This document shows positions 2,183 through 23,138 of a stretch of 64,000 bases of DNA, piece after piece; within the stretch, counting starts at the first letter, position 1, and every line of letters starts with the position of its first letter. The DNA comes from Myxococcota bacterium. GTDB lineage: Bacteria; Myxococcota_A; UBA796; GCA-2862545. The stretch lies in assembly GCA_965224055.1 (NCBI GenBank), contig OZ245034.1, forward strand, positions 8,182,762-8,246,761, read 5' to 3'. The notes under the pieces are model-generated. The model did no database searches. It was not told the origin of the DNA and worked only from the letters and a program-made list of their open reading frames with translations. The position numbers were made by a program, and so were the translations under genes.

Positions 2183-2188
2183 TGTGGT

Positions 2189-2900: not shown

Positions 2901-3311
2901 TCAGTCGTCGGTCGGACGACGTTCCATGCGAATACGCTTGCCGGTCTTCACGGCCTGCTGGAGCGTAGCGAGGCTGACCCGGCTCAGGGGGAAGATCGCC
3001 TTGCGGATCTTGGCGCCCTTGAAGGTGCACCCATCCAGGATCGTGAAGTCGAAGTCGGCTTCCTCGAGGTTGGCACCGTCGAACACGGCATCGGTGCAGT
3101 CGGAGTGCCACATGGACGCCGCCTGGAGGTTGGCACCACGAAACGTGGCCCGCGTGAGGTTGCACTCTGCGAGCTTGCACTCTGCGAGGTCGGCCCCGTC
3201 GAAGTTGACGCCCGAGAGGTCGTTGCCCCGCAGGTCGAGGCCTGCGAGGGACTCACCTCGCGCGATCAGGTCGACGACCTGTTTCTTCGTCAGGGGGCGT
3301 GGGGAGCCCAT
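2901..3311 (-). CDS. Pentapeptide-repeat protein
   Basis: Repeated A(D/N)LxG/x pentads (LRGNDLSGVNFDGADLAECKLAECNLTRATFRGANLQ...). I chose the internal ATG at 3311 because the longer ORF start overlaps gshB extensively. Confidence 0.65.
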   Translation of the reverse strand: MGSPRPLTKKQVVDLIARGESLAGLDLRGNDLSGVNFDGADLAECKLAECNLTRATFRGANLQAASMWHSDCTDAVFDGANLEEADFDFTILDGCTFKGAKIRKAIFPLSRVSLATLQQAVKTGKRIRMERRPTDD

Positions 3312-4257: not shown

Positions 4258-4349
4258 GAGGTGTGCGTACCCGTGTGCGAGTGCTGGGGCCATGATCCCG
4301 GCGGGGATGCGGTAGGCTGCGGCCGCCGACAACGACTGGCGGAGGCGAG

Positions 4350-6425: not shown

Positions 6426-6683
6426 CTAGCCGTCGTCGCCGATGGCCTCGACCGGGCAGTTCTCCATCGCCTCGTAGCAGGCCGCGAGCTCCTGGGCATC
6501 GGAGGGCTGCTTGAAGCAGATGTCGTGGTCTTCGTCGTCGGACATGCGGAAGTTGTTCGGCGCACAGTCCGAGCAGACCGAGCACAGGATGCACTCGCGG
6601 TCGACGTAGAACACCACCCGCTTGCCATCGATGTTCGCTTCGCCGCCGACGTTGTCGTGCCACTGGTCGGTGGGGTCCGCCAT
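6426..6683 (-). CDS. 4Fe-4S ferredoxin (small, Cys-rich)
   Basis: 85 aa with a CILCSVCSDC cluster and a distal C...CP motif. Its own RBS GGAGGA lies upstream. Probably co-transcribed with selB. Confidence 0.85.
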   Translation of the reverse strand: MADPTDQWHDNVGGEANIDGKRVVFYVDRECILCSVCSDCAPNNFRMSDDEDHDICFKQPSDAQELAACYEAMENCPVEAIGDDG

Positions 6684-6755
6684 GCTTCCTCCGGAGTGGC
6701 CGCTCCTAACGGGTCGGGGATCCAGATGCTCGGCCCACCCTCGCGGTGCAGCCCC

Positions 6756-8648
6756 TCAGAGCTGGGAGCCTCGCGTGCGCCGGCCTTCGGCTCCGAAGGC
6801 GGTGTAGCGGCCCTTGTCGAGCCACTCGAGCCAGGGGATGGCCGTCTTGCGCGACAGCTCGGTGAGCGACTTGAAGTCGCCGGGGCTCAAGACCTCGTTG
6901 GACGCGAACCAGCCCTGGAGCCGCTGGAGAAGAGCGTCGCGTGCGGGTGTGGCGACCCACCCCACGCTGGCCACCTGCAGGACCTCCCCATCGTCTTCGA
7001 GGAGCTTGGTGAGGGCCGCGACCTCGGGCTCGGGATGGGTGGCGTGCAGGGACTTCGGCGACACCCCGGCCAGACCCGCCGTCACGATGGTCTGGAGCAC
7101 GTCGTCGCGGAGCGCCCGCTGCTCGGCGTCGAGCTCGACCGCGAAGCCCGCCGCACGCACCATCGGACCGTCGATCTGCACCCGGGTCGCGTCCACCAAC
7201 GAATCGACCAGGGTGTCGAACAACCGGTCCGGGAGGTGTCCCAATCGACCGCGCTTCAGCTCGCGTCGCTGGGCGCCGAGCGCCAGGGGATGCTCTTCGT
7301 GGAACGCCAGCAGGGCTTCCAGCAGGGCTCCCTGGAGCCGACCGACCACGCTGCGTGCGAGCACCCGGTCGCCGATGGTGGTCGCTCCGCGCGGCTCGTC
7401 CGCGGCCGGACCCTGTACTCCCCCTCTTCGGACGGTCCACTCCGAGGTCGACAGCCCGAGATCGCCCGCCCGCTCGAGCCAGACGACAGGATCGCCGTCG
7501 GCCAGGCGCTGGGTTCCTTCGCCGTGTGCAACCCGGTCCCGGCGACGCATCTTCGGTGCCCAGGGATCCACGACCCGACCCCCGCCGAGGGTCTCCATCG
7601 GACTGGTTCGCCGGACCACGAAGCGATCGCCCGGCATGCAGGGCAGCGCCTGATCGAGTCGCAGCTGGGCCATCACCGTGACCCCGGGCGGGACCTGATC
7701 GCGGTCGGCGGCGATGTGCAGACGACCGATGCACTCGGTGGTGCCGAGCAGCACGCGAACGCTGGTCCGGTCGTCGAGGGCGCCCATCGAGGCGAGCTGG
7801 GTGTAGGTGACGTCGAGGACGTGGGGGCACGGCACCGCGTCGCTGTCGGTGACCACGACCCCCCGCGAGACGGCGTCGGTGTCGATTCCGGCCAGGTTGA
7901 GCGCGATGCGTCGGCCCGCCCGCGCGACCTCGGACGGCTCGCCGTGCACCTCGATCCCCCGCACCCGGGCCGTGGTGTCGCCCGGCAGCAGGTGGACGGT
8001 GGCGCCGTCGGTCAGTGTTCCGCTCCACGCCGAGCCCGTCGCCACGGTTCCGAAGCCGCTCCGACTGAAGGTCCGGTCGACCGGCAACCGAAACGGCCCG
8101 TGTTCCTGGGGTGCATTGCGGGGCAGTGCTGCAATCGCGTCGAGCAGGGCGTCCTTTCCGCGGCCGTCCTCCGCGCTGGTGGCGATGGTGGGCGCGCCCT
8201 CCAGGAAGGTGCCGGCCACCGCATCCTCGACGTCGACGAACGCGAGCTCCAGCAGCTCCTCGTCGACCAGATCGGCCATCGTGACCGCGACGATCCCGCG
8301 CTGCAGGCCCAGAAGCTGGAGGATGGCGAGGTGCTCGCGGGTCTGGGGCATCACGCCGTCGACCGCCGAGACCACCAGCAGTGCGGCGTCCAGGCCCGTG
8401 GCCCCGGCGATCATCGTGCGGACCAGGCGCTCGTGGCCGGGCACGTCGATCAGCGCCACCCGACGGCCATCGGGCAGATCGAGGGGGGTGAAGCCGAGCG
8501 CGATGGTGATCCCGCGCTCCTGCTCCTCCGGAAGCGTGTCCAGATGCTGACCCGTGAGCAGGCGGACCAGGCTGGTCTTGCCGTGGTCGATGTGGCCCGC
8601 GGTGCCGAGCAGGAGCGGGCGGTCATCGGGGCGGTCGTCGGACGCCAT
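6756..8648 (-). CDS. selB: Selenocysteine-specific translation elongation factor SelB
   Basis: GTP-binding motifs AGHIDHGKTSL, DVPGH and AVTMAD; SelB-specific stretch QTREHLAILQLLG. The ~630 aa length and winged-helix C-terminal region are consistent with bacterial SelB (compared with E. coli SelB from memory). Confidence 0.9.
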   Translation of the reverse strand: MASDDRPDDRPLLLGTAGHIDHGKTSLVRLLTGQHLDTLPEEQERGITIALGFTPLDLPDGRRVALIDVPGHERLVRTMIAGATGLDAALLVVSAVDGVMPQTREHLAILQLLGLQRGIVAVTMADLVDEELLELAFVDVEDAVAGTFLEGAPTIATSAEDGRGKDALLDAIAALPRNAPQEHGPFRLPVDRTFSRSGFGTVATGSAWSGTLTDGATVHLLPGDTTARVRGIEVHGEPSEVARAGRRIALNLAGIDTDAVSRGVVVTDSDAVPCPHVLDVTYTQLASMGALDDRTSVRVLLGTTECIGRLHIAADRDQVPPGVTVMAQLRLDQALPCMPGDRFVVRRTSPMETLGGGRVVDPWAPKMRRRDRVAHGEGTQRLADGDPVVWLERAGDLGLSTSEWTVRRGGVQGPAADEPRGATTIGDRVLARSVVGRLQGALLEALLAFHEEHPLALGAQRRELKRGRLGHLPDRLFDTLVDSLVDATRVQIDGPMVRAAGFAVELDAEQRALRDDVLQTIVTAGLAGVSPKSLHATHPEPEVAALTKLLEDDGEVLQVASVGWVATPARDALLQRLQGWFASNEVLSPGDFKSLTELSRKTAIPWLEWLDKGRYTAFGAEGRRTRGSQL

Positions 8649-12012: not shown

Positions 12013-12381
12013 ATGCTCCCGCCAGGAGGTGCGCAGATGCGACAGCTGTGTGGAATCGGAGCGCTCGTGTTCTGGGGCGTCGGGGGATGCTCGGGTTCGG
12101 AGCCCATCGACACCGATCCCATCGACACGGACACCGAGGCCGCGGACTGCGAGGGGTTGTCCGAGCAGACGTGCGGCCAGGTCGACGGATGCGTGCAGAT
12201 CGTCGGTACGCGCGTGAACGGCGCCGAGCAGTACGCTGGATGCGCGGCGGACAATCCGGATGGGTGTGCCGAGGAGCCCACTGCGGCCGAGGATCCGAGC
12301 GATGGCGCGTGCTGGGACTTCGACACGGCGTGCGTTCCGGACGGATGGACCGTGCTCGGGGGCGCCTGCGCAGACCAGTAG
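12013..12381 (+). CDS. Small secreted Cys-rich lipoprotein (hypothetical)
   Basis: Lipobox GVGGCSG, 8 further Cys and an acidic low-complexity region. 8 nt downstream of the L-domain protein. An alternative start is the ATG at 12037. Confidence 0.5.
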   Translation: MLPPGGAQMRQLCGIGALVFWGVGGCSGSEPIDTDPIDTDTEAADCEGLSEQTCGQVDGCVQIVGTRVNGAEQYAGCAADNPDGCAEEPTAAEDPSDGACWDFDTACVPDGWTVLGGACADQ

Positions 12382-12396
12382 GCCGCGAGCGCTGCG

Positions 12397-12972
12397 TCAG
12401 ACCACGGCGTCGTCGCCACGGATGGGCAGGCCCCAGGCCAGACCTCCGACCGCGATGCAGAGAACCCCGTGGAACACATCGATCGCCAGGAACGGCCCGA
12501 CGTCGCCCTCGGTGCCGATCACCAGTCCGGCGACGGCGAACAGCAGGGCTCCGACGATGGCGGCGGCCCCGCGCTTGGGATGGTGGGGCAGACAGCGCGA
12601 TGCCCCGACGATGACTGCGACCATCGACAGCGCCCCCACCACGGTCCCATAGGCCTCGAACGGGAACGCGAGCCCGAATGCGGCGAAGCCGACCACGCTG
12701 GTGCCCATCGTGATCATCCGGCCATCCGGACCGGGTCGGTTCCAGCACGTCGACAGGAACTGCACACCGATGAGGGGGAGACCCGTGGCGGTGGCCAGCG
12801 CCGAGACGAAGCCGTGCAGCTCGGCGAGATCGGGGTTCACGCCGAAGCGCACCGCTCCGATGAACGCGGCGATGCCGATCAGCATGAAGCCCGTGGACGC
12901 GTAGCGTTCTCCGCGCGAACGAAGCCACATGCACGCGGCGAACGCCACGAGCATGAGGAGGCCGTCGGACAT
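12397..12972 (-). CDS. Hypothetical integral membrane protein
   Basis: Five to six hydrophobic helices. Start taken at the internal ATG (MSDGLL). Divergent from aspS. Confidence 0.55.
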   Translation of the reverse strand: MSDGLLMLVAFAACMWLRSRGERYASTGFMLIGIAAFIGAVRFGVNPDLAELHGFVSALATATGLPLIGVQFLSTCWNRPGPDGRMITMGTSVVGFAAFGLAFPFEAYGTVVGALSMVAVIVGASRCLPHHPKRGAAAIVGALLFAVAGLVIGTEGDVGPFLAIDVFHGVLCIAVGGLAWGLPIRGDDAVV

Positions 12973-13106
12973 TGCGGTCGAGAGCTGGATGGTCGATCCT
13001 CTGCGCGGAACCTGCGTGCTCGACGGGTCGAGTAACCAACGCATGTCATGACCCCGTCACGGAGGTATGGGAAGCGGCGACTCTGCGACCAGACGAGGAG
13101 AGAGTG

Positions 13107-14876
13107 ATGTTGACCCGGAGAACCCACCAGTGTGGGGAGCTGCGTTCGAGCCACGTCGACCAACAGGTCGTCGTCCAGGGGTGGGCCAGTGCCGTGCGAG
13201 ACCGCGGCGGCGTGGCGTTCATCCTGCTGCGGGATCGGCACGGGATCGTGCAGATCACCGTCGACGAGCGCTGCACCGACGAGGTCCGGGATGCCGCCAA
13301 GGGTGTGCGGCTCGAGTACGTGATCCAGGTGCGCGGAACCGTCGCCGCCCGCAACGCCAGCGCCGTCAAGGACGACATGGACACGGGAGCCATCGAGATC
13401 ATCCCGTCCGAGCTCACCGTGCTCAACGGCACCAAGCCGCTGCCCTTCGCGATCGGCAAGCAGTCCGAGGCCAGCGAGGAGACCCGGCTGAAGTACCGCT
13501 ACCTCGATCTGCGGCGCCCGGAGCTGCAGCAGAACATCGTCATCCGCCACAAGGCGGCCCAGGCGGCGCGGCGAGCACTCGACGAGCTGGATTTCCTGGA
13601 GATCGAGACCCCAATCCTCACCAAGGCCACGCCCGAAGGGGCCCGGGACTACCTCGTTCCGAGCCGGGTGCACCAGAGCCACTGGTACGCGCTTCCCCAG
13701 AGCCCGCAGATCTTCAAGCAGATCCTGATGGTCGCGGGCATGGACCGCTACTTCCAGATCTGCCGCTGCTTCCGCGACGAAGACCTGCGATTCGACCGTC
13801 AGCCCGAGTTCACCCAGATCGACATCGAGATGAGCTTCGCGCCGCGCGACCAGGTGATGGAGGTCGCCGAGACCGTCACGCGCGCCATCTGGAAGTCCGT
13901 GCTCGACCACGACGTCGGCGAGATCCCACGGCTGACCTACCACGAAGCCATCGAACGCTACGGCGTGGATGCGCCGGATCTGCGGTTCGGCATGGAGCTG
14001 TTCACGCTCACCGACATCGTGGCCGACTCCACCTTCCCGCCCGTCTCGAACGCGCTCTCGAGCGGGGGCGTTGTGCGCGGCTTCACCCTGAAGGGCGGGG
14101 TCGAGGGCACGTCGCGCAAGGTCCTCGACGCCTGGACGAAGTTCGTGCAGAACTACGGGCTCGGCGGGCTGCTCTGGGGCAAGGTCAACGACGACGGCAT
14201 GTCCGGTCCGCTGAAGAAGGCCGTTCCGGAAGGCCAGGATGCGGCGTTCCGCGAGGCGGCGGGCTGCGAGGCCGGCGACGTCGTGCTCGTGGCCGCCGGT
14301 GCTGCGAAGCACGTGAACGCGGGCCTCGGAAAGCTCCGTGTGCACGTGGCCCGCGAGAAGGGCCTGGTGGGCGAGGGGTTCGCGTTCGCCTGGGTGGTCG
14401 ACTTCCCGCTGTTCGAGGCCGACGACGACGGCAACTGGACCAGCATGCACCACCCGTTCACCGCTCCCAAGCCCGAGCAGGCCGAGCTCGTCGGCACCGA
14501 TCGCACGGGCGAGGTGCTCTCCGACGCCTACGACCTGGTGTGCAACGGCAACGAGATCTGCGGGGGCTCCATCCGTATCCACGACTCGGACACCCAGCAG
14601 AAGGTGTTCGCAGCCCTGGGGATCGGCGAAGCGGAGCAGCAGGAGAAGTTCGGCTTCATGCTCGACGCACTGGCCCACGGCGCGCCTCCCCACGGCGGCA
14701 TGGCGTTCGGGTTCGACCGGCTGATCATGTGGTTGTGCAGCACCGAGAGCATCCGTGACGTCATCGCGTTCCCGAAGACCACCAGCGCCCAGGACCTCAT
14801 GTCCGGCGCACCTGGTACGGTGGACCCCCACGAGCTCGTCGAGCTCCACGTGAAGAACACGTCCAGCCAGGAGTGA
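13107..14876 (+). CDS. aspS: Aspartate--tRNA ligase
   Basis: Class II aaRS motifs (FRDEDLR motif 2 region, GGSIRIH, GMAFGFDRLIMWL motif 3) and an N-terminal OB-fold. Start at ATG with RBS GAGGAGAGAG. Confidence 0.95.
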   Translation: MLTRRTHQCGELRSSHVDQQVVVQGWASAVRDRGGVAFILLRDRHGIVQITVDERCTDEVRDAAKGVRLEYVIQVRGTVAARNASAVKDDMDTGAIEIIPSELTVLNGTKPLPFAIGKQSEASEETRLKYRYLDLRRPELQQNIVIRHKAAQAARRALDELDFLEIETPILTKATPEGARDYLVPSRVHQSHWYALPQSPQIFKQILMVAGMDRYFQICRCFRDEDLRFDRQPEFTQIDIEMSFAPRDQVMEVAETVTRAIWKSVLDHDVGEIPRLTYHEAIERYGVDAPDLRFGMELFTLTDIVADSTFPPVSNALSSGGVVRGFTLKGGVEGTSRKVLDAWTKFVQNYGLGGLLWGKVNDDGMSGPLKKAVPEGQDAAFREAAGCEAGDVVLVAAGAAKHVNAGLGKLRVHVAREKGLVGEGFAFAWVVDFPLFEADDDGNWTSMHHPFTAPKPEQAELVGTDRTGEVLSDAYDLVCNGNEICGGSIRIHDSDTQQKVFAALGIGEAEQQEKFGFMLDALAHGAPPHGGMAFGFDRLIMWLCSTESIRDVIAFPKTTSAQDLMSGAPGTVDPHELVELHVKNTSSQE

Positions 14877-14880
14877 ACCC

Positions 14881-15483
14881 ATGACCGCGGCCGCCTACAG
14901 TCGACGCTTCGACCGGGCGGTCGCGCTCGCGCTCGACTCCTTCCGCCCCATCGTGCGCAAGGGGTCGGGGGTGCCGTACGCCACCCACCTGTTGAGCGTC
15001 ACCGCGTTGGTGGGCGAGTACGGCGGCGACGAAGACCAGCTGTGCGCGGCCATCCTGCACGACTACATCGAGGACATTCCGGGCGCGACCGAGGAGAAGC
15101 TGGCCGAGGAGTTCGGAGACCGCGTCGCGAAGATGGTGGTGGCGCTGTCGGACTGTGAAGGCGAGCCGAAGCCCCCGTGGCGCGAGCGGAAGATGGCGTA
15201 TCTCGCCCATCTCAAGCACGAAGACCCCGACATCAAGCTGATCAGCTGTGCCGACAAGCTCCACAACGCGACCACCATCGTGATGGACCACAAGCGCATC
15301 GGGAACAGCATCTTCGAGCGGTTCCGCGGCAAGAAGGACGGCACGCTCTGGTACTACGACGCCGTGGTCCACGCGCTGGCTCACGGCTGGGAGTCCCGTC
15401 TGCTCGACCGTCTCGACGAGGTGGTCGACGAGATCCACGTGCTGGCGGGTGTTCCCAGGCCTTCGCCCGCGGGAGCCGAGTAG
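14881..15483 (+). CDS. HD-domain protein, RelA/SpoT-type (p)ppGpp hydrolase-like (small alarmone hydrolase candidate)
   Basis: HLLSV...AAILHDYIEDI matches the SpoT/Mesh1 HD hydrolase motif. ~200 aa with no synthetase domain. 4 nt after aspS and 3 nt before the large kinase gene. Confidence 0.7.
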   Translation: MTAAAYSRRFDRAVALALDSFRPIVRKGSGVPYATHLLSVTALVGEYGGDEDQLCAAILHDYIEDIPGATEEKLAEEFGDRVAKMVVALSDCEGEPKPPWRERKMAYLAHLKHEDPDIKLISCADKLHNATTIVMDHKRIGNSIFERFRGKKDGTLWYYDAVVHALAHGWESRLLDRLDEVVDEIHVLAGVPRPSPAGAE

Positions 15484-15486
15484 CCG

Positions 15487-18400
15487 GTGACCCTGGAGCG
15501 GGCGCGCGCGGCCTGGCGGGTCCGGGACTGGCAGGCGGTGCTCGAGGCGGTCGGGTCCCGAGACGACGCGCCTGCGCTGGTGCTCCGGAGCCATGCGTGG
15601 CGCTGGACGGCGGCCGTCGATCGCGCCCTGGAGGCCGCCGAGCTCGCATTGGCGCGCGCTACCCAGGAGTCGGTACGCCATCAGGCCCTGGATGTCTTCG
15701 CGCGTGCGCTCCCCTCGGCCCGTCGCTCGACCGAAGCGGGGCTCGTCGAGCGTCTCGAAGAACCGGACATCCCGCTGCTGCGCGCTACGGCGTCGTTCGT
15801 GCGCGCCGAGCGGGCCTTCTACCGCCGTGACCCCGGCCTGCTGGCGGCGTGCGAGCGCTTGATCCGCGATGTCGAGCGGCTCGGCGAGCCCGCGGATCTG
15901 GCCGATACTCTGGGGTCCTGCGCGTTCTGGGTGCACGAGAACGGTGCCAGGAGCCAGGCTGCGGTGTGGGCGGAGCGGGCCGAGCAGTGTGTCGGTGAGG
16001 CGGGGTTCGAGCACGCGCTGGCCCGGGCTCGCTCCATCGCGGTACGGCTGCCCCTGTCCAGTCCCCATGCGATTCGACAGCTACAGCGCGCCGTCCCGTT
16101 CATCGATCGATGGGGGACCCCCTGGCTCCGGGTCCAGACGTTGAGCGGGCTCGCGACGATGCTCGCCGAGACCGAGCGGTACGACGAAGCCGTTCGTGCC
16201 GCGGCGAGAGCGAGTGCCGTGTGCCGTTCGGAAGTGCCGGCCGCACTCGGGAAGGTGCGCTGGGCGGAGTCCTGGGTGCAGCTGCTCGCGGGTGACCCCG
16301 CGATCGCGCAGACCGCCATCGAGGTTCGCTCGCTCCTGCCCGACGGCGAGGCCGCACGGACCTCACAGGTGGTGGACTGGATGGTCCAGGCCGAGGGTGG
16401 GGACTTCACAGGCCTCGAAGCGGAGCTTCTCCGGACGGCACCGCGCCTGCGACGCCTCGGGGTCGTTCCGTACTACTGGTCCATCGCCATGAATCGCATC
16501 GCGTCGCGGGCCGAGGAAGCGGGGCAGACGGGCATCTCGGTCCTGGCGACCCGCGAGATCCTGGAAGTCGGCGAGGTTCCCGAGCGCGACGCTGCAGTGG
16601 CGCGCATCACGAGGCTCCCTTCGGATTCCCCCGTACCCATCGGGCCGTTCGTCGTCCGTCGCCAGGTCGGAGCCGGGGGGATGGGCGCGATCTGGACCGA
16701 CGATGTGCACGCGGTGAAGCTGTTGACGCTGACCGATCCGCGGGCGGTGGCGATGTTCGAGGAGGAGATCGCGGCCGTCGCCCGCCTGCGTCACCCGAAC
16801 ATCGTGCCCGTCGTCGATGCCGGGCGGGTGGGTCCGGCGGCAGCCACCCAGCTCGGGGTCGATCCGGAGACCCCGTGGCTGGCCATGCCGCTCGCACAGG
16901 GGTCTGTGCACGACCAGCTCGACAGCCTGGACTGGGATCGGGCGTCCGCCATCATCTGTGACGTGCTGGACGGGCTGGCGGCCGCTCACGCTGCGGGGTT
17001 GCTGCACCTGGACATCAAGCCCGCGAACGTGCTGTTGGACGGGGAGCGGGCGCGGTTGTCGGACTTCGGTCTGCAGGCGTCCATCGGCAACGTGGTTCGG
17101 CCGAGCGGGACGCCAGCGTACATGGCTCCGGAGCGCTTCCGGTCGCGTCCCCTGGGTATCGAAGCCGACCTGTACGCCGTCGGTTGCATGCTGTGGGAGC
17201 TCGTCGCTGGCGCGCCTCCATGGGACGGAGAGCCGGAAGAGGTCGCGAGAGCCCATCTGGAGCGGCCGCTTCCCGACCTCGTCCCGCGATTCACCATCCC
17301 GAGTGGGCTCCCGGCCATCCTGGGAGAGCTGCTCGACAAGACGCCGGTGCACCGTCCGGCACACGCACGCCTGGTTCGGATGCGCATCGCCTCCCTCGAC
17401 CCGGATCCCCATCCCGCCGGGGTTCCCGTGGCGATCGAAGAAGCCGGTGAGATCACCTTCGACTTCGGACTGGAGAGCAGCGGTTCGTTTCCGGGTCCGC
17501 CGACCGAGGAGCCGATGGTCGTGGAGCTCCCGGACTGGCGGGAGCTGATGAACCCGAGCTGGCAGCAGCTGGAAGGCACCGGGTTGTTCCACGTCCACCG
17601 TCCTCCCGTGCTGGGTCTGGACGATCAGAAGGACGTGTTGTGGTCGATGCTGGGCGGCGTCGTCACCGGAGGTCGGCCCGCGATGGTCGTCCTGGAAGGC
17701 GAGGAGTCCGCGCAGGAGCTGGTGGACTGGTTCGAGGACGCAGCCGGGCGATGTGGGCTCGCCGAGGTCCTCCCGGCGGGGCACCTGTCGTTCCGGTTCC
17801 CCGCCTCGGTGACGTGCATCCGTCGGTCCGTACCCGGAGCCCTCGAGCTCGAGAAGGCGCTGGAACGCATCGACGAGGGCTGTCCGCTGCTGTTGATCGT
17901 GGTCGGCGAGCGCCCCGGGCGGGGGGTGCACCTCGTCGTTCCTCCCCCCACCCCGGCGACCCTGCGCGAACGTCTGGCGCTGTGGTTCCCCCTCACGTCC
18001 CCGGTCAGGCTCCTGCTGTCGGAGTGGTCTGCAGGACGGCTCGGGCCCGTGCTCGAGGTGCTGCAGAAGTGGGCGGCAGAGGATCGACTCGTCGACACCG
18101 AGGACGGATGGGCGGTGCGCGGAGAACCCGACCTCCAGGAACGCGTCGCGGACGTCGAAGTCGTGGACGCGCTCTCGGACACCGCTCGTCGGTCGTTGCA
18201 GTGCCTGGCGCTGGGAGACGAGGAGATCGACCGGGCGGAGTCGGTGGAGGTGCTCCGCGCGTTCGGGCTCGACTGGCCCACCCGCGTAGTGCGCATGCTG
18301 GTGACGCGTCGCGTCCTGTGGGTCGACCGTGACGCTGGAACGGTGCGGTTCCTCGACCCCGCGCTTCGAGCCACCCTGTGCACCGGACCCCTGGATCCTC

Positions 18401-19503
18401 GTGCTGTGCGGATGGCCTGGGCAGACGTCGCGTCCGAGCCGGGTCGAGAGGGGGCCTTCCTGGCGAGGGCGGGTGCGTTCGAACGCGCCATTCCGCTGCT
18501 GGTGCAGGGGACGCGCGCCCTGGCGCACATGGGTCGGCTGCCCGAGGCTCGACGATTGCGCGAAGCGCTGGTGGACGCCCTCGGCCGGGTCGGTGCCGAC
18601 GACGACCATCCGGCGCGGGTGACGGTCTCGGTCTCGGCGGGCGCATTGCTCCCGACGACGACCGCCGCGCTTCGAGCAGCCGTCGAGCAAGCCGATGCGT
18701 CGATGGCCGCGGGTTGTTCGGACCCGCACGACGCAGCGTGGGCGCGCCTGACCTTGTCGACCTACGCCGATCCTCCGCTGGACTGGGAAGAGCGTCGCGA
18801 GATCCTCGCCCGTGCGTACGCCATCGGTCCCGAGACCCATGCGGGCGTCCTGGCCGCTGCCGACCGAGCGGTGCGGGGGCGATGGCGCGGCGACCTCGAC
18901 GGCGAGGCCTGGATCCACTGGGCGGTCGACGGCCTGAATCGCCTCGGGTTTCATGGGTACGCAGCCCACGTCGAAGCCAACTGGGCCACTGCGAATGGAG
19001 ACATGGACGCCGCTCACGCACATCTGCAGCGGGCGATCGAGCATGCGGAGTCCACCGCGATTCGCGCCGCCTCCTGGACCGAGCTCGGCGTACTCGCCGA
19101 GCGGCAGGGCGACGACGAACGGTCCATCGCGTGCTTCGTGGAGGCCATCCGCCTGGCGTCGCACACGGGCAACGATGCAGAAGCGCGTTTGGCCCTCGCG
19201 GAGATGTGGGTCCGGCAGGGTCGGCTGGAAGGCGTCGGAATGGCGGTTCGGGTGCGATACCGCTTGAGGCGGTTCGCCATCCATCGCCTCACCATCGCCA
19301 CCCTCCAGCTCGCTGCGATCCCGCCGGACTCGGACGATACCCATCCTGCGCTGGAGGCCGTGCGGGCGGAGGTCGACCCCGCGCAGCTGCACCCGGCTCA
19401 CGTGGACACCCTCGACCACGTCACCGCGATGCGTGCGGCTAGGGGATGGAGTGTCGCCGGATTCGATGCGCTCCGGCAGCACCTGACCGATCTCTGCAGC
19501 TGA
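15487..19503 (+). CDS. Large multidomain Ser/Thr protein kinase (Hanks-type kinase core flanked by helical/TPR-like regions)
   Basis: Kinase subdomains VGAGGMGAIW, AVKLL, HLDIKPANVLL, DFGLQ and APE around residues 390-650. Long alpha-helical N- and C-terminal regions. 1338 aa. Confidence 0.8.
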   Translation: MTLERARAAWRVRDWQAVLEAVGSRDDAPALVLRSHAWRWTAAVDRALEAAELALARATQESVRHQALDVFARALPSARRSTEAGLVERLEEPDIPLLRATASFVRAERAFYRRDPGLLAACERLIRDVERLGEPADLADTLGSCAFWVHENGARSQAAVWAERAEQCVGEAGFEHALARARSIAVRLPLSSPHAIRQLQRAVPFIDRWGTPWLRVQTLSGLATMLAETERYDEAVRAAARASAVCRSEVPAALGKVRWAESWVQLLAGDPAIAQTAIEVRSLLPDGEAARTSQVVDWMVQAEGGDFTGLEAELLRTAPRLRRLGVVPYYWSIAMNRIASRAEEAGQTGISVLATREILEVGEVPERDAAVARITRLPSDSPVPIGPFVVRRQVGAGGMGAIWTDDVHAVKLLTLTDPRAVAMFEEEIAAVARLRHPNIVPVVDAGRVGPAAATQLGVDPETPWLAMPLAQGSVHDQLDSLDWDRASAIICDVLDGLAAAHAAGLLHLDIKPANVLLDGERARLSDFGLQASIGNVVRPSGTPAYMAPERFRSRPLGIEADLYAVGCMLWELVAGAPPWDGEPEEVARAHLERPLPDLVPRFTIPSGLPAILGELLDKTPVHRPAHARLVRMRIASLDPDPHPAGVPVAIEEAGEITFDFGLESSGSFPGPPTEEPMVVELPDWRELMNPSWQQLEGTGLFHVHRPPVLGLDDQKDVLWSMLGGVVTGGRPAMVVLEGEESAQELVDWFEDAAGRCGLAEVLPAGHLSFRFPASVTCIRRSVPGALELEKALERIDEGCPLLLIVVGERPGRGVHLVVPPPTPATLRERLALWFPLTSPVRLLLSEWSAGRLGPVLEVLQKWAAEDRLVDTEDGWAVRGEPDLQERVADVEVVDALSDTARRSLQCLALGDEEIDRAESVEVLRAFGLDWPTRVVRMLVTRRVLWVDRDAGTVRFLDPALRATLCTGPLDPRAVRMAWADVASEPGREGAFLARAGAFERAIPLLVQGTRALAHMGRLPEARRLREALVDALGRVGADDDHPARVTVSVSAGALLPTTTAALRAAVEQADASMAAGCSDPHDAAWARLTLSTYADPPLDWEERREILARAYAIGPETHAGVLAAADRAVRGRWRGDLDGEAWIHWAVDGLNRLGFHGYAAHVEANWATANGDMDAAHAHLQRAIEHAESTAIRAASWTELGVLAERQGDDERSIACFVEAIRLASHTGNDAEARLALAEMWVRQGRLEGVGMAVRVRYRLRRFAIHRLTIATLQLAAIPPDSDDTHPALEAVRAEVDPAQLHPAHVDTLDHVTAMRAARGWSVAGFDALRQHLTDLCS

Positions 19504-19506
19504 CCG

Positions 19507-20175
19507 TCAGAGGTCGAAGATCGTCGGCCAGTGGTCGGGGAAGGGCTGCTCGACGACCTCGCCGGCGAAGATCGCGTCCAGCATGCCGCAGCGCTCGGCG
19601 TCCAGGGCCAGGGTGCACTCCTCGGACAGGGCCTCGAGCTCGGACAGGGTCATCACCTCGTCGGGCTCGGTCCGGATCGCCACCGAGCTGAAGCCGAGAT
19701 CCTCCGCCTGCTCTTCGACGTGACAGGTCGCGCAGACCGTGCCGCCGTCCTCTGCCGCGATCTTGTCGTGGGGGGCGAATGCGTCCAGCGCACCTTCGAT
19801 GGGCAGGGCGAGCTCGCCTTTGAGGGTGTGCCGATCGGTGCCGTCGCGGTCGACCGGTACGCCGAACTCGACGACCTCCGAGCCGATCCCCTCCGGGACC
19901 AGGGACATCGTGACCTCGCCGACGAAGAAGAAGATCCGCGGGTTGTGTGCGCCGGAGCTCGGTTGTGCGGACAACCCGCTGGTGCTGGCGGTCACCCGGA
20001 GCGGACGACCGAGGCTGTGGATCAGGCAGGTGGCATCGATGGGGCGCGGAAGGGCGTCGATGTGCGCGATCAGAGCGTCGAGATCGGCCGGCTCGACGGG
20101 CTCGTTCACGGCACAGGGATGCGAAGCGCCCGCCGGCTCGGGGCTGCAGGCCGCCAGCAACAGCAACGCGATCAT
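19507..20175 (-). CDS. Lipoprotein with a CXXCH motif (possible c-type cytochrome-like)
   Basis: Start at the internal ATG (MIALLLLAAC lipobox). Single CATCH motif near the C-terminus. Overlaps the upstream kinase gene stop by 4 nt (ATGA). Confidence 0.55.
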   Translation of the reverse strand: MIALLLLAACSPEPAGASHPCAVNEPVEPADLDALIAHIDALPRPIDATCLIHSLGRPLRVTASTSGLSAQPSSGAHNPRIFFFVGEVTMSLVPEGIGSEVVEFGVPVDRDGTDRHTLKGELALPIEGALDAFAPHDKIAAEDGGTVCATCHVEEQAEDLGFSSVAIRTEPDEVMTLSELEALSEECTLALDAERCGMLDAIFAGEVVEQPFPDHWPTIFDL

Positions 20176-23138
20176 GCCTGTGCCTCGTTCAGCAGGGCGG
20201 AGACGCGATCGTACAGCCGGGGCTCGTACAGGCACATCGGCTCGAGGGCCTGGAGCTGGCGGACGTAGTCGGGGTCGTGGGACGGCCGCTCGATGCGTTC
20301 GAGCAGGGCAGGGACCTCGTCGAGACGGCCGAGCTCGGCCAGACACCGCGCCCAGCTCGCCAGCACGATGGGCGACAGCTCGGACCACACCCCGCCCGCG
20401 TCGTCGAGCTCGTCGAGCACCGCCGAGGCGCGCTCGGGGCTCCCGGCGTCGATCAGGGCCAGCGCGAGGTTGAGCCGGGCGACCGGACCCAGCTTCGGAC
20501 TGCGGCGGTCCAGGCGCACCACCTCCTGCAGCATCGCGACGGACTCGTCGGGCCGGCCCAGCCAGCGGATCACCTCGCCGAGCTCGGCCCGGATGGTGTT
20601 GGCCAGACCCGGTGCGCCCGCGTCCATGGCCAGCTCCAGCGCCAGCTTCAGGTGGTTCTGGGCGCGCTCGAAGGCCTCGAGACCGAACGCCACCCGGCCC
20701 ACGCTGCGGTTCCACGCGGCGCGATCGACCCGGCGGGCGTCCTTTCCGGGGGGGCCCTGCATCAGCACGAACGCCTGGGCTTCCGCGAACCGGCCCGCGC
20801 GGAGCAGCAGCTGCAGGCGGGCGTTGGCGTTCGCGGGGTCGTCCGGTGCGCGACGCTGGGCAGCATCCAGGGCTTGTCCGGCGGCGTCGAACTCGGCCCG
20901 GCGGATCCGCACGATCGAGAGCATCCGCCAGGCCCGCGCGACGTCCCGATCCTCGGCCTCGCCCAGATCGTCCGCCAGCACCGCCCGATCCACGAGGGCA
21001 GTGGCCTGTTCGAGCGCGGCGTCGGGGGTCATCTCGCCCAGACCCTGCAACAAGCCCGCGATGTCGCGGCGGATCCCCAGGCTGCCCGTGGGCTCCGGGC
21101 ACGCTTCGGCGACCTCCCATGCGCGGTCGCGTCGACCGAAATCCCCGGCGTCGTGGGCCTCGGTGTGCACGTGCAGCGCCAGCTCGAGGGCGTCGGATTG
21201 TTCGCCCGCCGCCAGGAAGAGCCGGGCACGACGGAGGGGGTCGGCGTCGCGAAGGGTGACCGCCGCCGTGGTGTTGAGCCGCACCCACACCGCATCGGAT
21301 GCGCGTTGCTTCACGGCCTCCGCCAGGAGGGGATGAGCGAGGCGCCAGCCATGGCGGGTCTGATCGGCGAGGCATGCGCGCACCAGCCCGTCCAGACCCT
21401 CGCCGGTCTCCCGTGCATCGCTGCTGAGCAGGGCGTACTCCCGATCGAGCACCTCGCCCCCCAGGACGGCGCCCACCAGCAATGTGGGCCAGAGCTCCGG
21501 ATGGACGTCGAGCACGCTGTCGAGTCGGGTGCGCCAGGCGTCGAGCGGGTCGGACTGAATCGCGAATCGCCCGGTCTGAGCGAAGTGAACGGCCAGCTGA
21601 ACCGCCAGCAGGGGGCTGCCACCGCTCAACTCGGCCAGCTGGACCGCCCGGAAGCTGTCTTCGCCCAGGACCTCTGCGGCGAGGGCTTCGGCGGTCTCGG
21701 ACGACAGGCCCGCGAGGCGGGTTCGGGGCCACGAGGCCGGCAACACCGAGCCCGCAGGGGGTTCGATGCGCTCGGTGACCAGGATCGCCAGGGGGGTGGG
21801 CCCCACCTCGAGCAAGCGCTCGACGAACGCCGTCGCTTCGCGCCCCCACTGCAGGTCGTCGACCAGGAGCAGGGTGGGACGGGAGCGGTTGAGGGACTCG
21901 ATGGCGTCCAGCAGCGCTGTGAGACGGTCGTCCCACGGGGGCGTCGGACTGCGGAAGTCCACCCACGCCGACAGGATGCGCCGGGTGGCGTCGGACATCG
22001 GGTTGCGGGGGCGCTGCAGCAGTCGCTCCGCGAAGTCCGCGAGCCCATCCCCGCCCACGTCGTCGGCGTCGTGGCGAACCTCCAACACCCGCACGGTTCC
22101 GGACTCCGCCGCACGGAATGCCACCTGGGATGCGAGGTACGACTTGCCCGTTCCCGCAACGCCCTCGACCACGTGAACGGCGCGGCCGCCGGAGGCCATG
22201 GTCTCGTCGATCCAGGCCAGCAGCGCGCGCTCCTCCTCTTCGCGCCCGACCAGGGGCAGCTCGCGCATCCCGATGAGCGCGGCTCCCTTCGGACGGTCCT
22301 TCGCGGACGGGCTGTCCTCGAAGTCCCAGCCCGAGGGCCCGTCTGGGAGGGCCTCTCGAGCATCTGCCGCGTGTTGGAAGCGCTGGTCGGGGTCTTTTGC
22401 GAGCAGGCGTCGCAGCCAGAGCTGGAAGCGCGGCGGGAGCTCGAACAGGCCGTCGAACTCGGGCAGCGGCTCGGAGGTGTGGGCGTGCTGGAGCGCGCGG
22501 ACATCCCCGAAGTAGGGCGGAGAGCCGGTACAGCGCGCCCAGGTGACACAGCCGAGCGCGTACAGATCACTCCACGGCCCGACGTCGCGCGGATGGGTGA
22601 ACTGCTCGGGTGCCATGTACATCGGCGTGCCTGCGATCCGGTCGCCCAGGTCTTCGAGAGGTGCTGCCAGCCCGAAGTCGGCGAGCTTCCATCGGCCTTC
22701 GCTGCGCAGGACGTTGGCGGGCTTCAGGTCGCGGTGGACCAGCCCTCGTGCGTGGCAGTAGGCCAGCCCGTCCAGCAGGTCGAGCAGCAGGGCTCGCAGC
22801 GATGCCCAGTCCCGAATGGGCCGCTGGGCCGAGTGCTCCGCGCGCTCCATCGCGAACCAGGGGCTGTCCGGTGGGCGCTCCAGAGCGGCGGCGTGGTCGG
22901 GATCGAGGCGCCCCTGATCGAAGATCGCCACCACGCCCGGGTGGTTGAGTCGGGCAACGGCCCGGACCTCGCGTGCGAACGTCGCTCCAGCTTCCTTCGA
23001 GCGCGCGGTCTCGGCGGTGAGCAGCTTGATGGCCACCGGGTGGCTCGTGTGGAGGTCGAGCCCGGCGCGGACCTCTCCGATGGCCCCGCGACCCAGGACC
23101 TCACCGATGGCGTAGCGGCCGACGTGCACGGTCTCCAC
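20172..23138 (-). CDS. Ser/Thr protein kinase with AAA/STAND-type NTPase and TPR repeats
   Basis: N-terminal Hanks kinase (GRGAIGEV, AIKLL, HRDLKPANVL, DFGLA, APE). Walker A GVAGTGKS. C-terminal TPR-like helical repeats. 988 aa. Confidence 0.85.
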   Translation of the reverse strand: METVHVGRYAIGEVLGRGAIGEVRAGLDLHTSHPVAIKLLTAETARSKEAGATFAREVRAVARLNHPGVVAIFDQGRLDPDHAAALERPPDSPWFAMERAEHSAQRPIRDWASLRALLLDLLDGLAYCHARGLVHRDLKPANVLRSEGRWKLADFGLAAPLEDLGDRIAGTPMYMAPEQFTHPRDVGPWSDLYALGCVTWARCTGSPPYFGDVRALQHAHTSEPLPEFDGLFELPPRFQLWLRRLLAKDPDQRFQHAADAREALPDGPSGWDFEDSPSAKDRPKGAALIGMRELPLVGREEEERALLAWIDETMASGGRAVHVVEGVAGTGKSYLASQVAFRAAESGTVRVLEVRHDADDVGGDGLADFAERLLQRPRNPMSDATRRILSAWVDFRSPTPPWDDRLTALLDAIESLNRSRPTLLLVDDLQWGREATAFVERLLEVGPTPLAILVTERIEPPAGSVLPASWPRTRLAGLSSETAEALAAEVLGEDSFRAVQLAELSGGSPLLAVQLAVHFAQTGRFAIQSDPLDAWRTRLDSVLDVHPELWPTLLVGAVLGGEVLDREYALLSSDARETGEGLDGLVRACLADQTRHGWRLAHPLLAEAVKQRASDAVWVRLNTTAAVTLRDADPLRRARLFLAAGEQSDALELALHVHTEAHDAGDFGRRDRAWEVAEACPEPTGSLGIRRDIAGLLQGLGEMTPDAALEQATALVDRAVLADDLGEAEDRDVARAWRMLSIVRIRRAEFDAAGQALDAAQRRAPDDPANANARLQLLLRAGRFAEAQAFVLMQGPPGKDARRVDRAAWNRSVGRVAFGLEAFERAQNHLKLALELAMDAGAPGLANTIRAELGEVIRWLGRPDESVAMLQEVVRLDRRSPKLGPVARLNLALALIDAGSPERASAVLDELDDAGGVWSELSPIVLASWARCLAELGRLDEVPALLERIERPSHDPDYVRQLQALEPMCLYEPRLYDRVSALLNEAQA

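What the first reader, a model, noticed from the sequence alone, without database searches (positions are those of the whole stretch)
13107..19503. Apparent operon aspS - HD-only (p)ppGpp-hydrolase-like protein - 1338-aa Ser/Thr kinase
The three genes are separated by 4 nt and 3 nt on the same strand. The middle 200-aa protein carries only the SpoT/Mesh1-type HD hydrolase signature (H...HD, AAILHDYIEDI) with no synthetase domain, making it a small alarmone hydrolase candidate. Placing an alarmone hydrolase between an aminoacyl-tRNA synthetase and a giant Hanks kinase is a striking juxtaposition of stringent-response and phospho-signalling components. The kinase also has an unusual ~380-aa helical N-terminal domain in front of the catalytic core.
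Basis: partly seen in the sequence, partly recalled or inferred. Interest (0 to 1): 0.55.

Follow-up and report, generated by a model that had tools for sequence, protein, structure and literature searches.

The report
aspS–alarmone hydrolase pair plus accessory kinase
A myxobacterial aspartyl-tRNA synthetase gene is tightly and conservedly paired with a small (p)ppGpp-hydrolase gene of a known family, but the giant kinase behind them is a fast-evolving, lineage-specific add-on, not a conserved partner.

Summary
The three ORFs, their coordinates and the 4-nt and 3-nt gaps are real. The 200-aa protein is a RelH/Mesh1-L small alarmone hydrolase. It matches the solved Leptospira RelH at E 9e-39, keeps all six hydrolase motifs, and its model superposes on RelH structures (TM 0.83-0.89).

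The conserved unit is aspS plus the hydrolase. Seven related Myxococcota lineages keep them adjacent on one strand, with gaps from -8 to about +57 nt, while both flanks differ.

The 1338-aa kinase is not part of that unit:
- It fills a variable slot (window 15469-19506).
- One close relative carries an unrelated 177-aa ORF there.
- Two sibling contigs carry a 619-aa derivative that lacks the kinase domain.
- More distant relatives carry other genes.
- Its protein sequence changes about eight times faster than its neighbours.
- It has no close homologue among 5.8 billion proteins.
- It has lost its P-loop.
- It is one of three Hanks kinases in this 64-kb window.

Verdict: a new member of known kinds. 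The aspS–hydrolase linkage is a modest observation I did not find reported. The proposed stringent-response/phospho-signalling module is not supported by conservation.

The parts
13053..13071 (+). Conserved intergenic block CCGTCACGGAGGTATGGG, 36-54 nt upstream of the aspS start. It sits in the 62-nt gap between the divergent DUF6962 gene and aspS and is a candidate promoter or regulatory site (possible -10 TATGGG).
   Evidence: Invariant or nearly so in the alignment of the window, L081, L082 and L092. The consensus promoter scan found no sigma-70 match at its thresholds, so the function is inferred only.
13107..14876 (+). aspS, a bacterial-type aspartate--tRNA ligase of 589 aa (anticodon-binding OB fold, class II core, GAD insertion).
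   Evidence: NF001750 795 bits (cutoff 443) and TIGR00459 726 bits. Pfam tRNA-synt_2, GAD and tRNA_anti-codon. dN/dS 0.10-0.12 against L085 and L081.
14869..14873 (+). AGGAG Shine-Dalgarno-like motif inside the 3' end of aspS, 7 nt before the hydrolase ATG.
   Evidence: Read from the sequence. GGGAG or GGAG sits at the equivalent place in L081, L085 and L083.
14881..15483 (+). Small alarmone hydrolase of the RelH/Mesh1-L type, 200 aa, a single HD_4 domain.
   Evidence: PF13328 73.8 bits. PDB 7qoe E 9.4e-39 and 7qoc E 1.4e-26. AF2 pLDDT 94.7. Foldseek TM 0.83/0.88, rmsd 2.0 A to 7qoe. Motif residues R26, H36, H60-D61, E64-D65, D125-K126 and N129 are invariant in 28 homologues and correspond to HD1-HD6 as defined in PMC9293644.
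15469..19506 (.). Variable slot. DNA collinearity with relative L081 breaks at 15468 and resumes at 19507. The slot holds the kinase gene here and other genes elsewhere.
   Evidence: blastn breakpoints: window 15468|19507 against L081 10589|11113. L081 has an unrelated 177-aa (-) ORF, L082 has 209-aa (+) and 190-aa (-) ORFs, and L085/L086 have a 619-aa kinase-less homologue. No flanking repeats.
15487..16626 (+). Kinase N-terminal region (aa 1-380): an orphan, all-helical, TPR-like repeat domain.
   Evidence: Coding signature throughout. Exhaustive HMMER against 1.84 billion representatives found only itself, one weak repeat-protein match and the first 57 aa of P0242. AF2 gives 21 helices at pLDDT 61.6. 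Only weak Foldseek matches, all to TPR solenoids.
16657..17361 (+). Hanks-type Ser/Thr kinase catalytic domain (aa 391-625), non-RD type (HLD).
   Evidence: PF00069 105 bits (cutoff 31.7). GAGGMG, AVK, the alphaC Glu, HLDIKPAN, DFG and APE are present. There is a 6-residue deletion between the Gly loop and the Lys. It is 41% identical to the adjacent 988-aa kinase.
17584..17931 (+). Vestigial STAND/AAA_16-like module (aa about 700-815) with Walker A lost (GEESAQ in place of GxxGxGK[ST]).
   Evidence: Alignment to P0122 (GPLGSGRT) and to the neighbouring kinase (GVAGTGKS). No AAA_16 Pfam hit for this protein, although the neighbour and P0122 have one.
17932..19503 (+). Kinase C-terminal helical/TPR region (aa about 816-1338). 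Together with the first 57 aa, this is the part retained in the 619-aa homologue P0242.
   Evidence: BLASTP window aa 771-1335 against P0242 aa 43-613, 42% identity, E 1e-115. TPR_12/TPR_1 hits at aa 1164-1228 fall just below the Pfam cutoffs. dN 0.58 compared with 0.06-0.08 for aspS and HD.
19507..20175 (-). Conserved 222-aa protein of unknown function, convergent with the kinase (stops 3 nt apart).
   Evidence: 80% identical to L081 11113-11787. No Pfam or PADLOC family.
20175..23138 (-). Conserved 988-aa Pkinase-AAA_16-TPR kinase. It is syntenic with aspS-HD in L081, L082 and probably L092, and may be the source paralogue of the 1338-aa kinase.
   Evidence: 85% identity to L081 and 64% to L082. 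dN/dS 0.13. Pfam Pkinase, AAA_16 and TPR. A convergent kinase is also seen in L092.

Best explanation
The conserved functional unit is a two-gene operon, aspS plus a RelH/Mesh1-L small alarmone hydrolase (SAH).

The SAH is most likely a Mn2+-dependent 3'-pyrophosphohydrolase that converts (pp)pGpp back to GTP, GDP or GMP. This is inferred from homology and intact catalytic motifs. It is translated from the same mRNA as AspRS, with its ribosome-binding site inside the end of aspS. This is inferred from 4-nt spacing here and overlapping stop and start codons in relatives.

The likely consequence is that alarmone-degrading capacity is produced in step with a housekeeping translation gene. It would be high when the translation apparatus is being made and would fall when that expression is shut down. 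This consequence is inference.

The 1338-aa protein is a paralogue of the abundant myxobacterial kinase-STAND-TPR signalling proteins. It landed in a variable slot at the 3' end of this operon in one sublineage. It is probably read through from the aspS promoter in this genome, judging from spacing and the absence of a recognisable terminator. It is evolving fast, has lost its NTPase P-loop, and lost its kinase domain altogether in a sister lineage. Its link to the hydrolase is therefore positional, not a conserved mechanism.
For: SAH identity:
- HD_4 only.
- 7qoe/7qoc RelH at E 9e-39 and 1e-26.
- All six HD motifs invariant.
- AF2 pLDDT 94.7 and TM 0.83-0.89 to RelH structures.
- RelH_Cg and RelH_Ll are shown hydrolases (PMC5954133, PMC9293644).

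aspS-SAH unit:
- Adjacent on the same strand in the window, L081, L085/86, L082, L092, L083/84 and L089. aspS identity runs down to 68% and HD identity down to 64%.
- Upstream and downstream neighbours differ among these loci.
- Junctions where read are +4, +17, +19, -4, -4 and -8 nt.
- Linkage is loosened but still present in L090 and L101.

Kinase not conserved:
- Collinearity breakpoints 15468|19507.
- Absent from L081, L082, L083, L089 and L092.
- The 619-aa homologue P0242 in L085/86 lacks aa about 58-815.
- dN 0.58 compared with 0.06-0.08 for its neighbours.
- Best non-self database hit is only 29% identical.
- The N-terminal domain is an orphan.
- Walker A is lost.
- Three kinases lie in this 64-kb window.

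Read-through is plausible: no terminator-like site in 12300-20300 and a GGGAG about 11 nt before the GTG.
Against: - No transcript data, so co-transcription of any of the three genes is inferred from spacing only.
- The downstream gene abuts the hydrolase stop in two lineages (TAG-CCG-GTG here, TAGATG in L085/86). That is more than a random insertion would need and could reflect selected translational coupling.
- The ORF is intact over 1338 codons and the catalytic residues are kept, so the kinase is probably functional and could still act on the SAH or AspRS.
- aspS-SAH adjacency is confined to one clade. HD relatives at 59% identity or less, and one at 64% (L087/88), lack it.
- Substrate specificity of this SAH is untested. 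Mesh1-type enzymes also act on NADPH and other substrates (PDB titles).
Confidence: 0.62

Rival explanations
1. The three genes form a real functional module. The TPR-flanked kinase senses a signal and phosphorylates, or docks on, the alarmone hydrolase or AspRS. That would tie phospho-signalling to (p)ppGpp turnover.
For: - The 3-nt gap here and the 0-nt gap (TAGATG) in L085/86 keep the downstream gene translationally coupled to the hydrolase in two lineages.
- The kinase catalytic residues are intact.
- The ORF is intact in both lineages despite large divergence, with dN/dS about 0.5, below 1.
- Another SAH clade (L004, L099, L100, L103) has a co-directional kinase 0.5 kb downstream.
Against: - The kinase domain is deleted in L085/86, so kinase activity is not what is conserved.
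- The gene is absent in L081, L082, L092, L083 and L089.
- An eight-fold faster protein evolution than the SAH is unexpected for a dedicated partner of a conserved enzyme.
- Kinase density is high: three per 64 kb here, and kinases lie within the flanks of many Myxococcota SAH loci in all orientations. Adjacency is therefore near chance expectation.
- The L100/L103 kinase has a different architecture and a gap of about 520-560 nt.
Confidence: 0.15
2. The HD protein is not primarily a (p)ppGpp hydrolase. It may act on another 3'-pyrophosphorylated or phosphorylated substrate, such as (p)ppApp, NADPH, or the pyrophosphorylated CCA end of tRNA. The last option would give its linkage to an aminoacyl-tRNA synthetase a direct tRNA-related meaning.
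For: - The fold family includes enzymes crystallised with NADPH and PAPS (MESH1, 5vxa and 9chy) and a (p)ppApp hydrolase (7smg).
- SAHs neutralise toxSAS toxins (PMC7229694). From my own knowledge, some toxSAS pyrophosphorylate tRNA CCA ends (Kurata et al. 2021); this was not checked here.
- The aspS linkage is conserved.
Against: - The closest relatives by far are RelH_Ll and RelH_Cg, which hydrolyse (pp)pGpp.
- The guanine-contacting HD1 Arg and HD6 Asn are conserved.
- No toxSAS-like gene was seen in the parts of the window that were annotated; the window was not searched specifically for a synthetase domain.
- 7smg matches much more weakly (TM 0.50).
Confidence: 0.1
3. The 1338-aa gene is a decaying or neofunctionalised paralogue whose kinase output no longer matters, acting as a pseudokinase or TPR scaffold. 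Its tight packing is only the residue of deletion-biased genome streamlining at a variable spot.
For: - Walker A is lost and the NTPase module is shortened.
- There is a 6-residue deletion in the beta2-beta3 hairpin.
- GC3 is lower than in its neighbours (0.83 compared with 0.90-0.91).
- dN equals about the neighbours' dS (0.58 compared with 0.56-0.62).
- The sister lineage keeps only the N-terminal 57 aa plus the C-terminal region.
Against: - All catalytic kinase residues are retained.
- A 1338-codon open frame with a coding signature throughout would not survive neutral drift at dS of 0.6 or more.
- dN/dS by its own dS is about 0.5.
Confidence: 0.13

Closest known systems
RelH small alarmone hydrolases (Mesh1-L subgroup): Leptospira levettii RelH (PDB 7QOE) and Corynebacterium glutamicum RelH/cg1485 (7QOC/7QOD)
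   Same: A single HD_4 domain of about 190-200 aa. All six hydrolase motifs HD1-HD6 are present. The alignment covers aa 7-182, including the SAH-specific C-terminal helices. The predicted fold superposes at TM 0.83-0.89 and rmsd about 2 A.
   Different: Only about 36-48% identical. The genomic context differs: here it is translationally coupled to aspS, a linkage I found no report of. Activity, metal dependence, dimer form and product inhibition are untested for this protein.
Metazoan MESH1 (HDDC3; PDB 3NR1, 3NQW, 5VXA)
   Same: Same fold and HD motifs; a stand-alone hydrolase without a synthetase domain.
   Different: Much more distant (E 3e-9; TM 0.70-0.75; 24-25% identity). MESH1 has also been crystallised with NADPH and PAPS.
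Bacterial Hanks kinases fused to a STAND/AAA_16 NTPase and TPR repeats (the adjacent 988-aa kinase; P0122; M. tuberculosis PknK as the studied example, recalled from memory)
   Same: Kinase domain followed by an NTPase-homologous segment and a helical/TPR C-terminal region. It shares the subfamily-specific insertion after the RHPNIV motif with the neighbour and with P0122.
   Different: Walker A is lost and the NTPase module is truncated. An extra orphan 380-aa helical domain sits in front, which P0122 also has but the neighbour does not. It is a non-RD (HLD) kinase with a beta2-beta3 deletion, and it has no close orthologue with a kinase domain.
rel-dtd-hisS-aspS neighbourhood of Bacillota (recalled from memory, not tested here)
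   Same: An RSH-family gene lies near aspS, so there is a precedent for linkage between stringent-response genes and aminoacyl-tRNA synthetase genes.
   Different: There it is a long bifunctional Rel upstream, in separate transcription units, with hisS between. Here a hydrolase-only SAH lies immediately downstream of aspS and overlaps it.

Membership tests
Small alarmone hydrolase (RelH / Mesh1-L subgroup of the RSH superfamily) | Single HD_4 hydrolase domain, about 200 aa, with no synthetase, TGS or ACT domains | tested here: met
   Pfam gives only PF13328 (73.8 bits, cutoff 27.2) and PF01966. NCBIfam RelA/SpoT models match only the hydrolase part.
Small alarmone hydrolase (RelH / Mesh1-L subgroup of the RSH superfamily) | Six catalytic motifs: HD1 Arg, HD2 His, HD3 His-Asp, HD4 Glu-Asp, HD5 Asp(+Lys/Arg), HD6 Asn | tested here: met
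   R26, H36, H60-D61, E64-D65, D125-K126 and N129 are invariant in 28 homologues. They align to the RelH residues. Motif definitions come from PMC9293644.
Small alarmone hydrolase (RelH / Mesh1-L subgroup of the RSH superfamily) | RelH-like all-helical fold, including the C-terminal helices absent from long RSHs | tested here: met
   AF2 pLDDT 94.7, pTM 0.91. Foldseek top hits are 7qoe, 7qoc and 7qod at TM 0.77-0.89 and rmsd 1.9-2.5 A.
Small alarmone hydrolase (RelH / Mesh1-L subgroup of the RSH superfamily) | Mn2+-dependent hydrolysis of ppGpp, pppGpp and pGpp | not testable with these tools
   Requires an enzyme assay. It is inferred from homologues characterised in PMC5954133 and PMC9293644.
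Bacterial aspartate--tRNA ligase (AspRS) | Score above the equivalog cutoff, with OB anticodon-binding, class II core and GAD insertion domains | tested here: met
   NF001750 795 bits (cutoff 443) and TIGR00459 726 bits (cutoff 374). Pfam finds all three domains. Whether it discriminates tRNA-Asp from tRNA-Asn was not tested.
Hanks-type Ser/Thr protein kinase | Pkinase domain with Gly loop, beta3 Lys, alphaC Glu, catalytic loop D-x-K-x-x-N, DFG and APE | tested here: met
   PF00069 105 bits (cutoff 31.7). GAGGMG, AVK, EEE, HLDIKPAN, DFG and APE are all present. Deviations are HRD changed to HLD and a 6-residue deletion before the Lys. Catalytic activity is not testable here.
STAND-type kinase-NTPase-TPR signalling protein | Functional P-loop NTPase (Walker A GxxGxGK[ST]) after the kinase domain | tested here: not met
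   The homologous position reads LEGEESAQ. There is no AAA_16 hit, while the neighbouring kinase and P0122 have one.
STAND-type kinase-NTPase-TPR signalling protein | C-terminal TPR/helical repeat sensor region | tested here: inconclusive
   TPR_12 27.9 bits (cutoff 30.1) and TPR_1 25.3 bits (cutoff 27.8) at aa 1164-1228. The region is homologous to P0242 and P0122 C-terminal regions. Its structure was not predicted.
Operon (co-transcribed, functionally linked gene set) | Same strand, very short or overlapping junctions, no intervening terminator | tested here: met
   Gaps of 4 and 3 nt. No terminator-like site in 12300-20300, against a shuffle mean of 1.7. This is weak evidence, because consensus scans are insensitive in high-GC genomes.
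Operon (co-transcribed, functionally linked gene set) | Gene order conserved across related genomes | tested here: not met
   Met for aspS-HD, which are adjacent in seven lineages. Not met for HD-kinase: the kinase is absent in L081, L082, L083, L089 and L092 and is kinase-less in L085/86. The three-gene set as proposed therefore fails this feature.
Operon (co-transcribed, functionally linked gene set) | A single transcript spanning the genes | not testable with these tools
   Needs RNA-seq, RT-PCR or 5'-RACE.

The most novel reading that the evidence does not exclude
In one clade of Myxococcota, aspS and a RelH-type hydrolase form a hard-wired, translationally coupled pair. The dose of alarmone hydrolase would then be set by AspRS synthesis, or the hydrolase would act on a tRNA-linked or AspRS-linked substrate. 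The fast-evolving downstream protein, whose conserved parts are the first 57 residues and the C-terminal TPR region, with the kinase domain optional, would be a clade-specific regulator that docks on the hydrolase.
Probability: 0.1. Interest if true: 0.55.

Novelty: new member of a known kind. Interest (0 to 1): 0.3.

Why it matters
How stand-alone alarmone hydrolases are regulated is still unclear (PMC9293644). A conserved, overlapping aspS-SAH gene pair suggests a simple answer for one bacterial clade: the hydrolase is made in proportion to a core translation enzyme. That is testable with a reporter or RNA-seq in a cultivable relative.

The kinase result is a cautionary one. In kinase-rich Myxococcota, tight spacing to a kinase gene does not by itself indicate a signalling link. 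Comparison with close relatives shows here that the kinase occupies a variable slot. Nothing found changes what is known about the stringent response or Hanks kinases.

Tried and rejected
The source is inferred to be a Myxococcota, probably Polyangia/Sandaracinaceae-like, with a 9.4-Mb replicon, from its relatives.
None had aspS upstream. Taken alone this would have wrongly suggested no conservation. The close relatives came from the look-up of encoding contigs and the metagenome scan.
- I rejected the idea that the 380-aa N-terminal extension is an over-called ORF in a high-GC genome. The coding signature runs from codon 1, and the N-terminus is conserved in P0242.
- I rejected a defence-system reading of the kinase-STAND-TPR protein. 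PADLOC hits (PD-T4-6, mad6, MkoA) cover only the generic kinase domain and appear equally for the neighbouring kinase.
- I rejected a mobile-element insertion. There are no flanking direct or inverted repeats, GC content is the same as the surroundings, and there is no integrase.
- I found no RNA leader or riboswitch. Rfam gave only a spurious sub-threshold mir-124 hit.
- The promoter and terminator consensus scans found nothing.
- The ORFs lying between aspS and HD in L090 and L101 are unrelated to each other, so there is no hidden conserved third gene.
- The fold search with the low-confidence N-terminal model gave only weak TPR-solenoid matches (E above 1e-3, TM below 0.45). I use it only as consistent with a helical repeat.

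Full report
**Observation**

The window is about 69% GC throughout.
- aspS, 13107-14876
- a 200-aa HD protein, 14881-15483
- a 1338-aa ORF, GTG 15487 to 19503

The gaps are 4 nt and 3 nt.

aspS scores 795 bits on the AspRS equivalog model, against a cutoff of 443. The middle protein has only HD_4/HD domains. The large protein has a Pkinase domain at aa 391-625 and sub-threshold TPR hits near aa 1164-1228.

Long ORFs arise easily in high-GC DNA, so I checked codon-position GC. The kinase frame shows GC3 0.75-0.90 and GC2 about 0.5 from its first codons to its last. The N-terminal 380 aa are therefore coding.

An AGGAG lies 7 nt before the hydrolase ATG, inside aspS. A GGGAG lies about 11 nt before the kinase GTG. 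The kinase stop is 3 nt from the stop of a convergent gene.

**The HD protein**

Its best solved relatives are the small alarmone hydrolases of Leptospira levettii (7qoe, E 9.4e-39) and Corynebacterium glutamicum (RelH, 7qoc, E 1.4e-26). These score far ahead of MESH1 (E 3e-9) and the long Rel/SpoT enzymes.

An alignment of 28 homologues keeps R26, H36, H60-D61, E64-D65, D125-K126 and N129 invariant. These are the HD1-HD6 motifs that bind the guanine base and Mn2+ and carry out the attack on the 3'-pyrophosphate, as described for RelH (PMC9293644).

An AlphaFold model built on that alignment is confident (pLDDT 94.7). It superposes on the RelH structures at TM 0.83-0.89 and about 2 A rmsd.

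RelH_Cg is classed in the Mesh1-L subgroup and hydrolyses ppGpp, pppGpp and pGpp in a Mn2+-dependent way (PMC5954133). Mesh1-L was already recorded in delta-proteobacteria (PMC3153485).

It is a new member of a known, characterised family. Activity itself is inferred.

**Conservation of the arrangement**

A scan of species-representative genomes returned only relatives with 59% identity or less. None had aspS upstream. The closest relatives, reached through the protein database and a metagenome scan, tell a different story.

aspS lies immediately upstream of the hydrolase on the same strand in these loci:

| Locus | HD identity | aspS identity |
|---|---|---|
| L081 | 88% | 92% |
| L085/L086 | 88% | 91% |
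| L082 | 73% | 79% |
| L092 | 72% | 77% |
| L089 | 65% | 74% |
| L083/L084 | 64% | 68% |

The junctions are +4 (window), +17, +19, -4 (GTGA), -4 (ATGA) and -8 nt.

The genes on either side of the pair differ among these loci. Upstream are DUF6962, response regulators or others. Downstream are a sigma factor, a 381-aa protein or others. The pair itself is therefore what is retained.

The linkage persists but is interrupted in L090 (aspS 1.8 kb upstream) and L101 (0.8 kb upstream). The intervening ORFs in those two loci are unrelated to each other.

The linkage is absent in L087/88, L091 and all more distant relatives.

I found no paper linking a small alarmone hydrolase to aspS or aspartyl-tRNA synthetase. 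The FlaGs neighbourhood study of RSH genes does not mention tRNA synthetases.

**The kinase is not part of the conserved unit**

The window is collinear with L081 gene by gene: SelB, several unknowns, DUF6962, aspS, HD, then a 224-aa gene, a 986-aa kinase and an FG-GAP protein.

DNA similarity stops at window 15468 and resumes at 19507. This corresponds to L081 10589 and 11113. The 4-kb kinase gene exactly fills that gap.

What occupies the slot elsewhere:
- L081 has an unrelated 177-aa ORF on the other strand.
- L082 has two other unrelated ORFs.
- L092, L083 and L089 have no co-directional kinase.

A search of 5.8 billion proteins found no close homologue of the 1338-aa protein. The best hit, P0122, is 29% identical over half the length.

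An exhaustive HMMER search with the N-terminal 385 aa against 1.84 billion representatives returned three proteins: the protein itself, a weak repeat-protein match, and P0242.

P0242 is informative:
- It is a 619-aa protein encoded directly after the hydrolase in L085/L086 (TAGATG junction).
- Its first 57 residues match the kinase's first 58 (63% identity).
- The rest matches kinase aa 771-1335 (42% identity).
- It therefore lacks most of the N-terminal domain, the whole kinase domain and the NTPase remnant.

P0122-type proteins align continuously across the region missing from P0242. P0242 is therefore best read as an internal-deletion derivative of a full-length kinase. That is an inference.

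Nei-Gojobori estimates between the window and L085:

| Gene | dN | dS |
|---|---|---|
| aspS | 0.062 | 0.62 |
| Hydrolase | 0.081 | 0.56 |
| Kinase C-terminal region | 0.58 | about 1.2 (unreliable at 44% identity) |

The kinase C-terminal region thus changes its protein sequence seven- to nine-fold faster than its neighbours. The conserved neighbouring 988-aa kinase has dN/dS 0.13 against L081.

**Anatomy of the kinase**

The catalytic motifs are present: GAGGMG, AVK, the alphaC Glu, HLDIKPAN, DFG and APE. It is a non-RD kinase with a 6-residue deletion between the Gly loop and the Lys.

After the kinase domain comes a segment homologous to the AAA_16/STAND NTPase of P0122 and of the neighbouring kinase. 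The Walker A site reads GEESAQ and the module is shortened. No AAA_16 hit is found.

The N-terminal 380 aa are predicted as 21 helices in hairpin-like pairs, at low confidence (pLDDT 61.6). Only weak fold matches appear, all to TPR solenoids. P0122 carries TPR repeats in the same position. A helical repeat domain before the kinase is therefore unusual but not unique.

The catalytic domain is 41% identical to the adjacent 988-aa kinase and shares its characteristic insertion. This is compatible with a local paralogue origin, which remains unproven.

The window holds three Hanks kinases in 64 kb. Kinases occur in all orientations within a few kb of hydrolase genes in other Myxococcota loci. Adjacency to a kinase is therefore close to what chance gives in these genomes.

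PADLOC hits are generic kinase-domain matches. No repeats flank the slot.

**How it most likely works**

Shown or strongly supported:
- The hydrolase has an intact RelH active site and fold.
- aspS and the hydrolase are kept adjacent with coupled junctions.
- The kinase sits in a variable slot.

Inferred:
- The pair is transcribed from a promoter in the 62-nt divergent intergenic region. A block there, CCGTCACGGAGGTATGGG at 13053-13071, is conserved in four lineages.
- The hydrolase is translated by coupling to aspS. Alarmone-clearing capacity would then track expression of a core translation gene.
- In this genome, transcription probably reads on into the kinase gene. No terminator-like structure was found, though that scan is weak evidence in high-GC DNA.

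I put 0.62 on this overall reading. I put 0.15 on a true SAH-kinase functional module, about 0.10 on a different primary substrate for the hydrolase, and about 0.13 on the kinase being a decaying or scaffold-only paralogue.

**Comparison, novelty and verdict**

The hydrolase passes every membership feature of the RelH/Mesh1-L SAH family that can be tested in silico. AspRS passes its equivalog test. The kinase passes as a Hanks kinase but fails the P-loop feature of STAND kinases. The three-gene operon fails the conservation feature, while the two-gene aspS-SAH unit passes it.

This is a new member of known kinds. The only element I did not find reported is the conserved aspS-SAH linkage in one Myxococcota clade. 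That is a modest, testable lead on how stand-alone hydrolases are expressed. Interest 0.3.

Noticed in passing
window 20175-23138 (-) and 19507-20175 (-): A 988-aa Pkinase-AAA_16-TPR kinase and a 222-aa unknown protein lie convergent to the aspS-HD pair. They are conserved next to it in L081, the kinase also in L082, and a convergent kinase is seen in L092. This kinase is under strong constraint (dN/dS 0.13), and its catalytic domain is the closest relative (41%) of the 1338-aa kinase.
   Followed up: partly
window 13053-13071: An intergenic block, CCGTCACGGAGGTATGGG, lies between the divergent DUF6962 gene and aspS. It is conserved in the window, L081, L082 and L092 and is a possible shared promoter or operator. 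It is not matched by the sigma-70 consensus scan.
   Followed up: partly
window 19501-19509: The stop codons of the convergent 1338-aa kinase gene and the 222-aa gene are 3 nt apart with no terminator-like hairpin. Transcripts from either side would run antisense into the other gene.
   Followed up: no
L004 3248-5180; L099; L100 2678-7280; L103 4716-9348: In another Myxococcota SAH clade (53% identical), a co-directional 1166-aa kinase with an N-terminal catalytic domain lies about 520-560 nt downstream of the hydrolase. This is a second, independent SAH-then-kinase neighbourhood, with looser spacing and a different architecture.
   Followed up: partly
L027 8001-10318 (Patescibacteria MAG): An HD_4 hydrolase (31% identical) is followed about 400 nt downstream on the same strand by aspS. 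The same two gene families are adjacent in the opposite order in an unrelated phylum. This may be chance in a compact genome.
   Followed up: no
L081 10583-11116 (-); L082 10645-11274 (+) and 11281-11853 (-): The slot occupied by the kinase in the window holds small ORFs with no Pfam or PADLOC family in close relatives. This marks a local hotspot of gene turnover right after the hydrolase stop codon.
   Followed up: partly
window 6429-8648 (-): A selenocysteine-specific elongation factor SelB (630 aa) sits next to a small ferredoxin-like gene (Fer4_13 in the L081/L082 homologues). This implies selenoprotein synthesis in this organism.
   Followed up: no
window 953-2806 (-): An ECF sigma factor (205 aa) is followed by a zf-HC2/RseA-like anti-sigma protein (409 aa) with overlapping-style spacing.
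   Followed up: no
window 56895-58403 (+): A third Hanks-type kinase (502 aa, Pkinase 146 bits) lies in the same 64-kb window, illustrating the high kinase density of this genome.
   Followed up: no
window 3253-5345: A glutathione-synthetase-like ATP-grasp gene (3253-4332, -) lies divergent from gpsA (NAD-dependent glycerol-3-phosphate dehydrogenase, 4350-5345, +). gpsA is syntenic in L081, L082 and L091.
   Followed up: no
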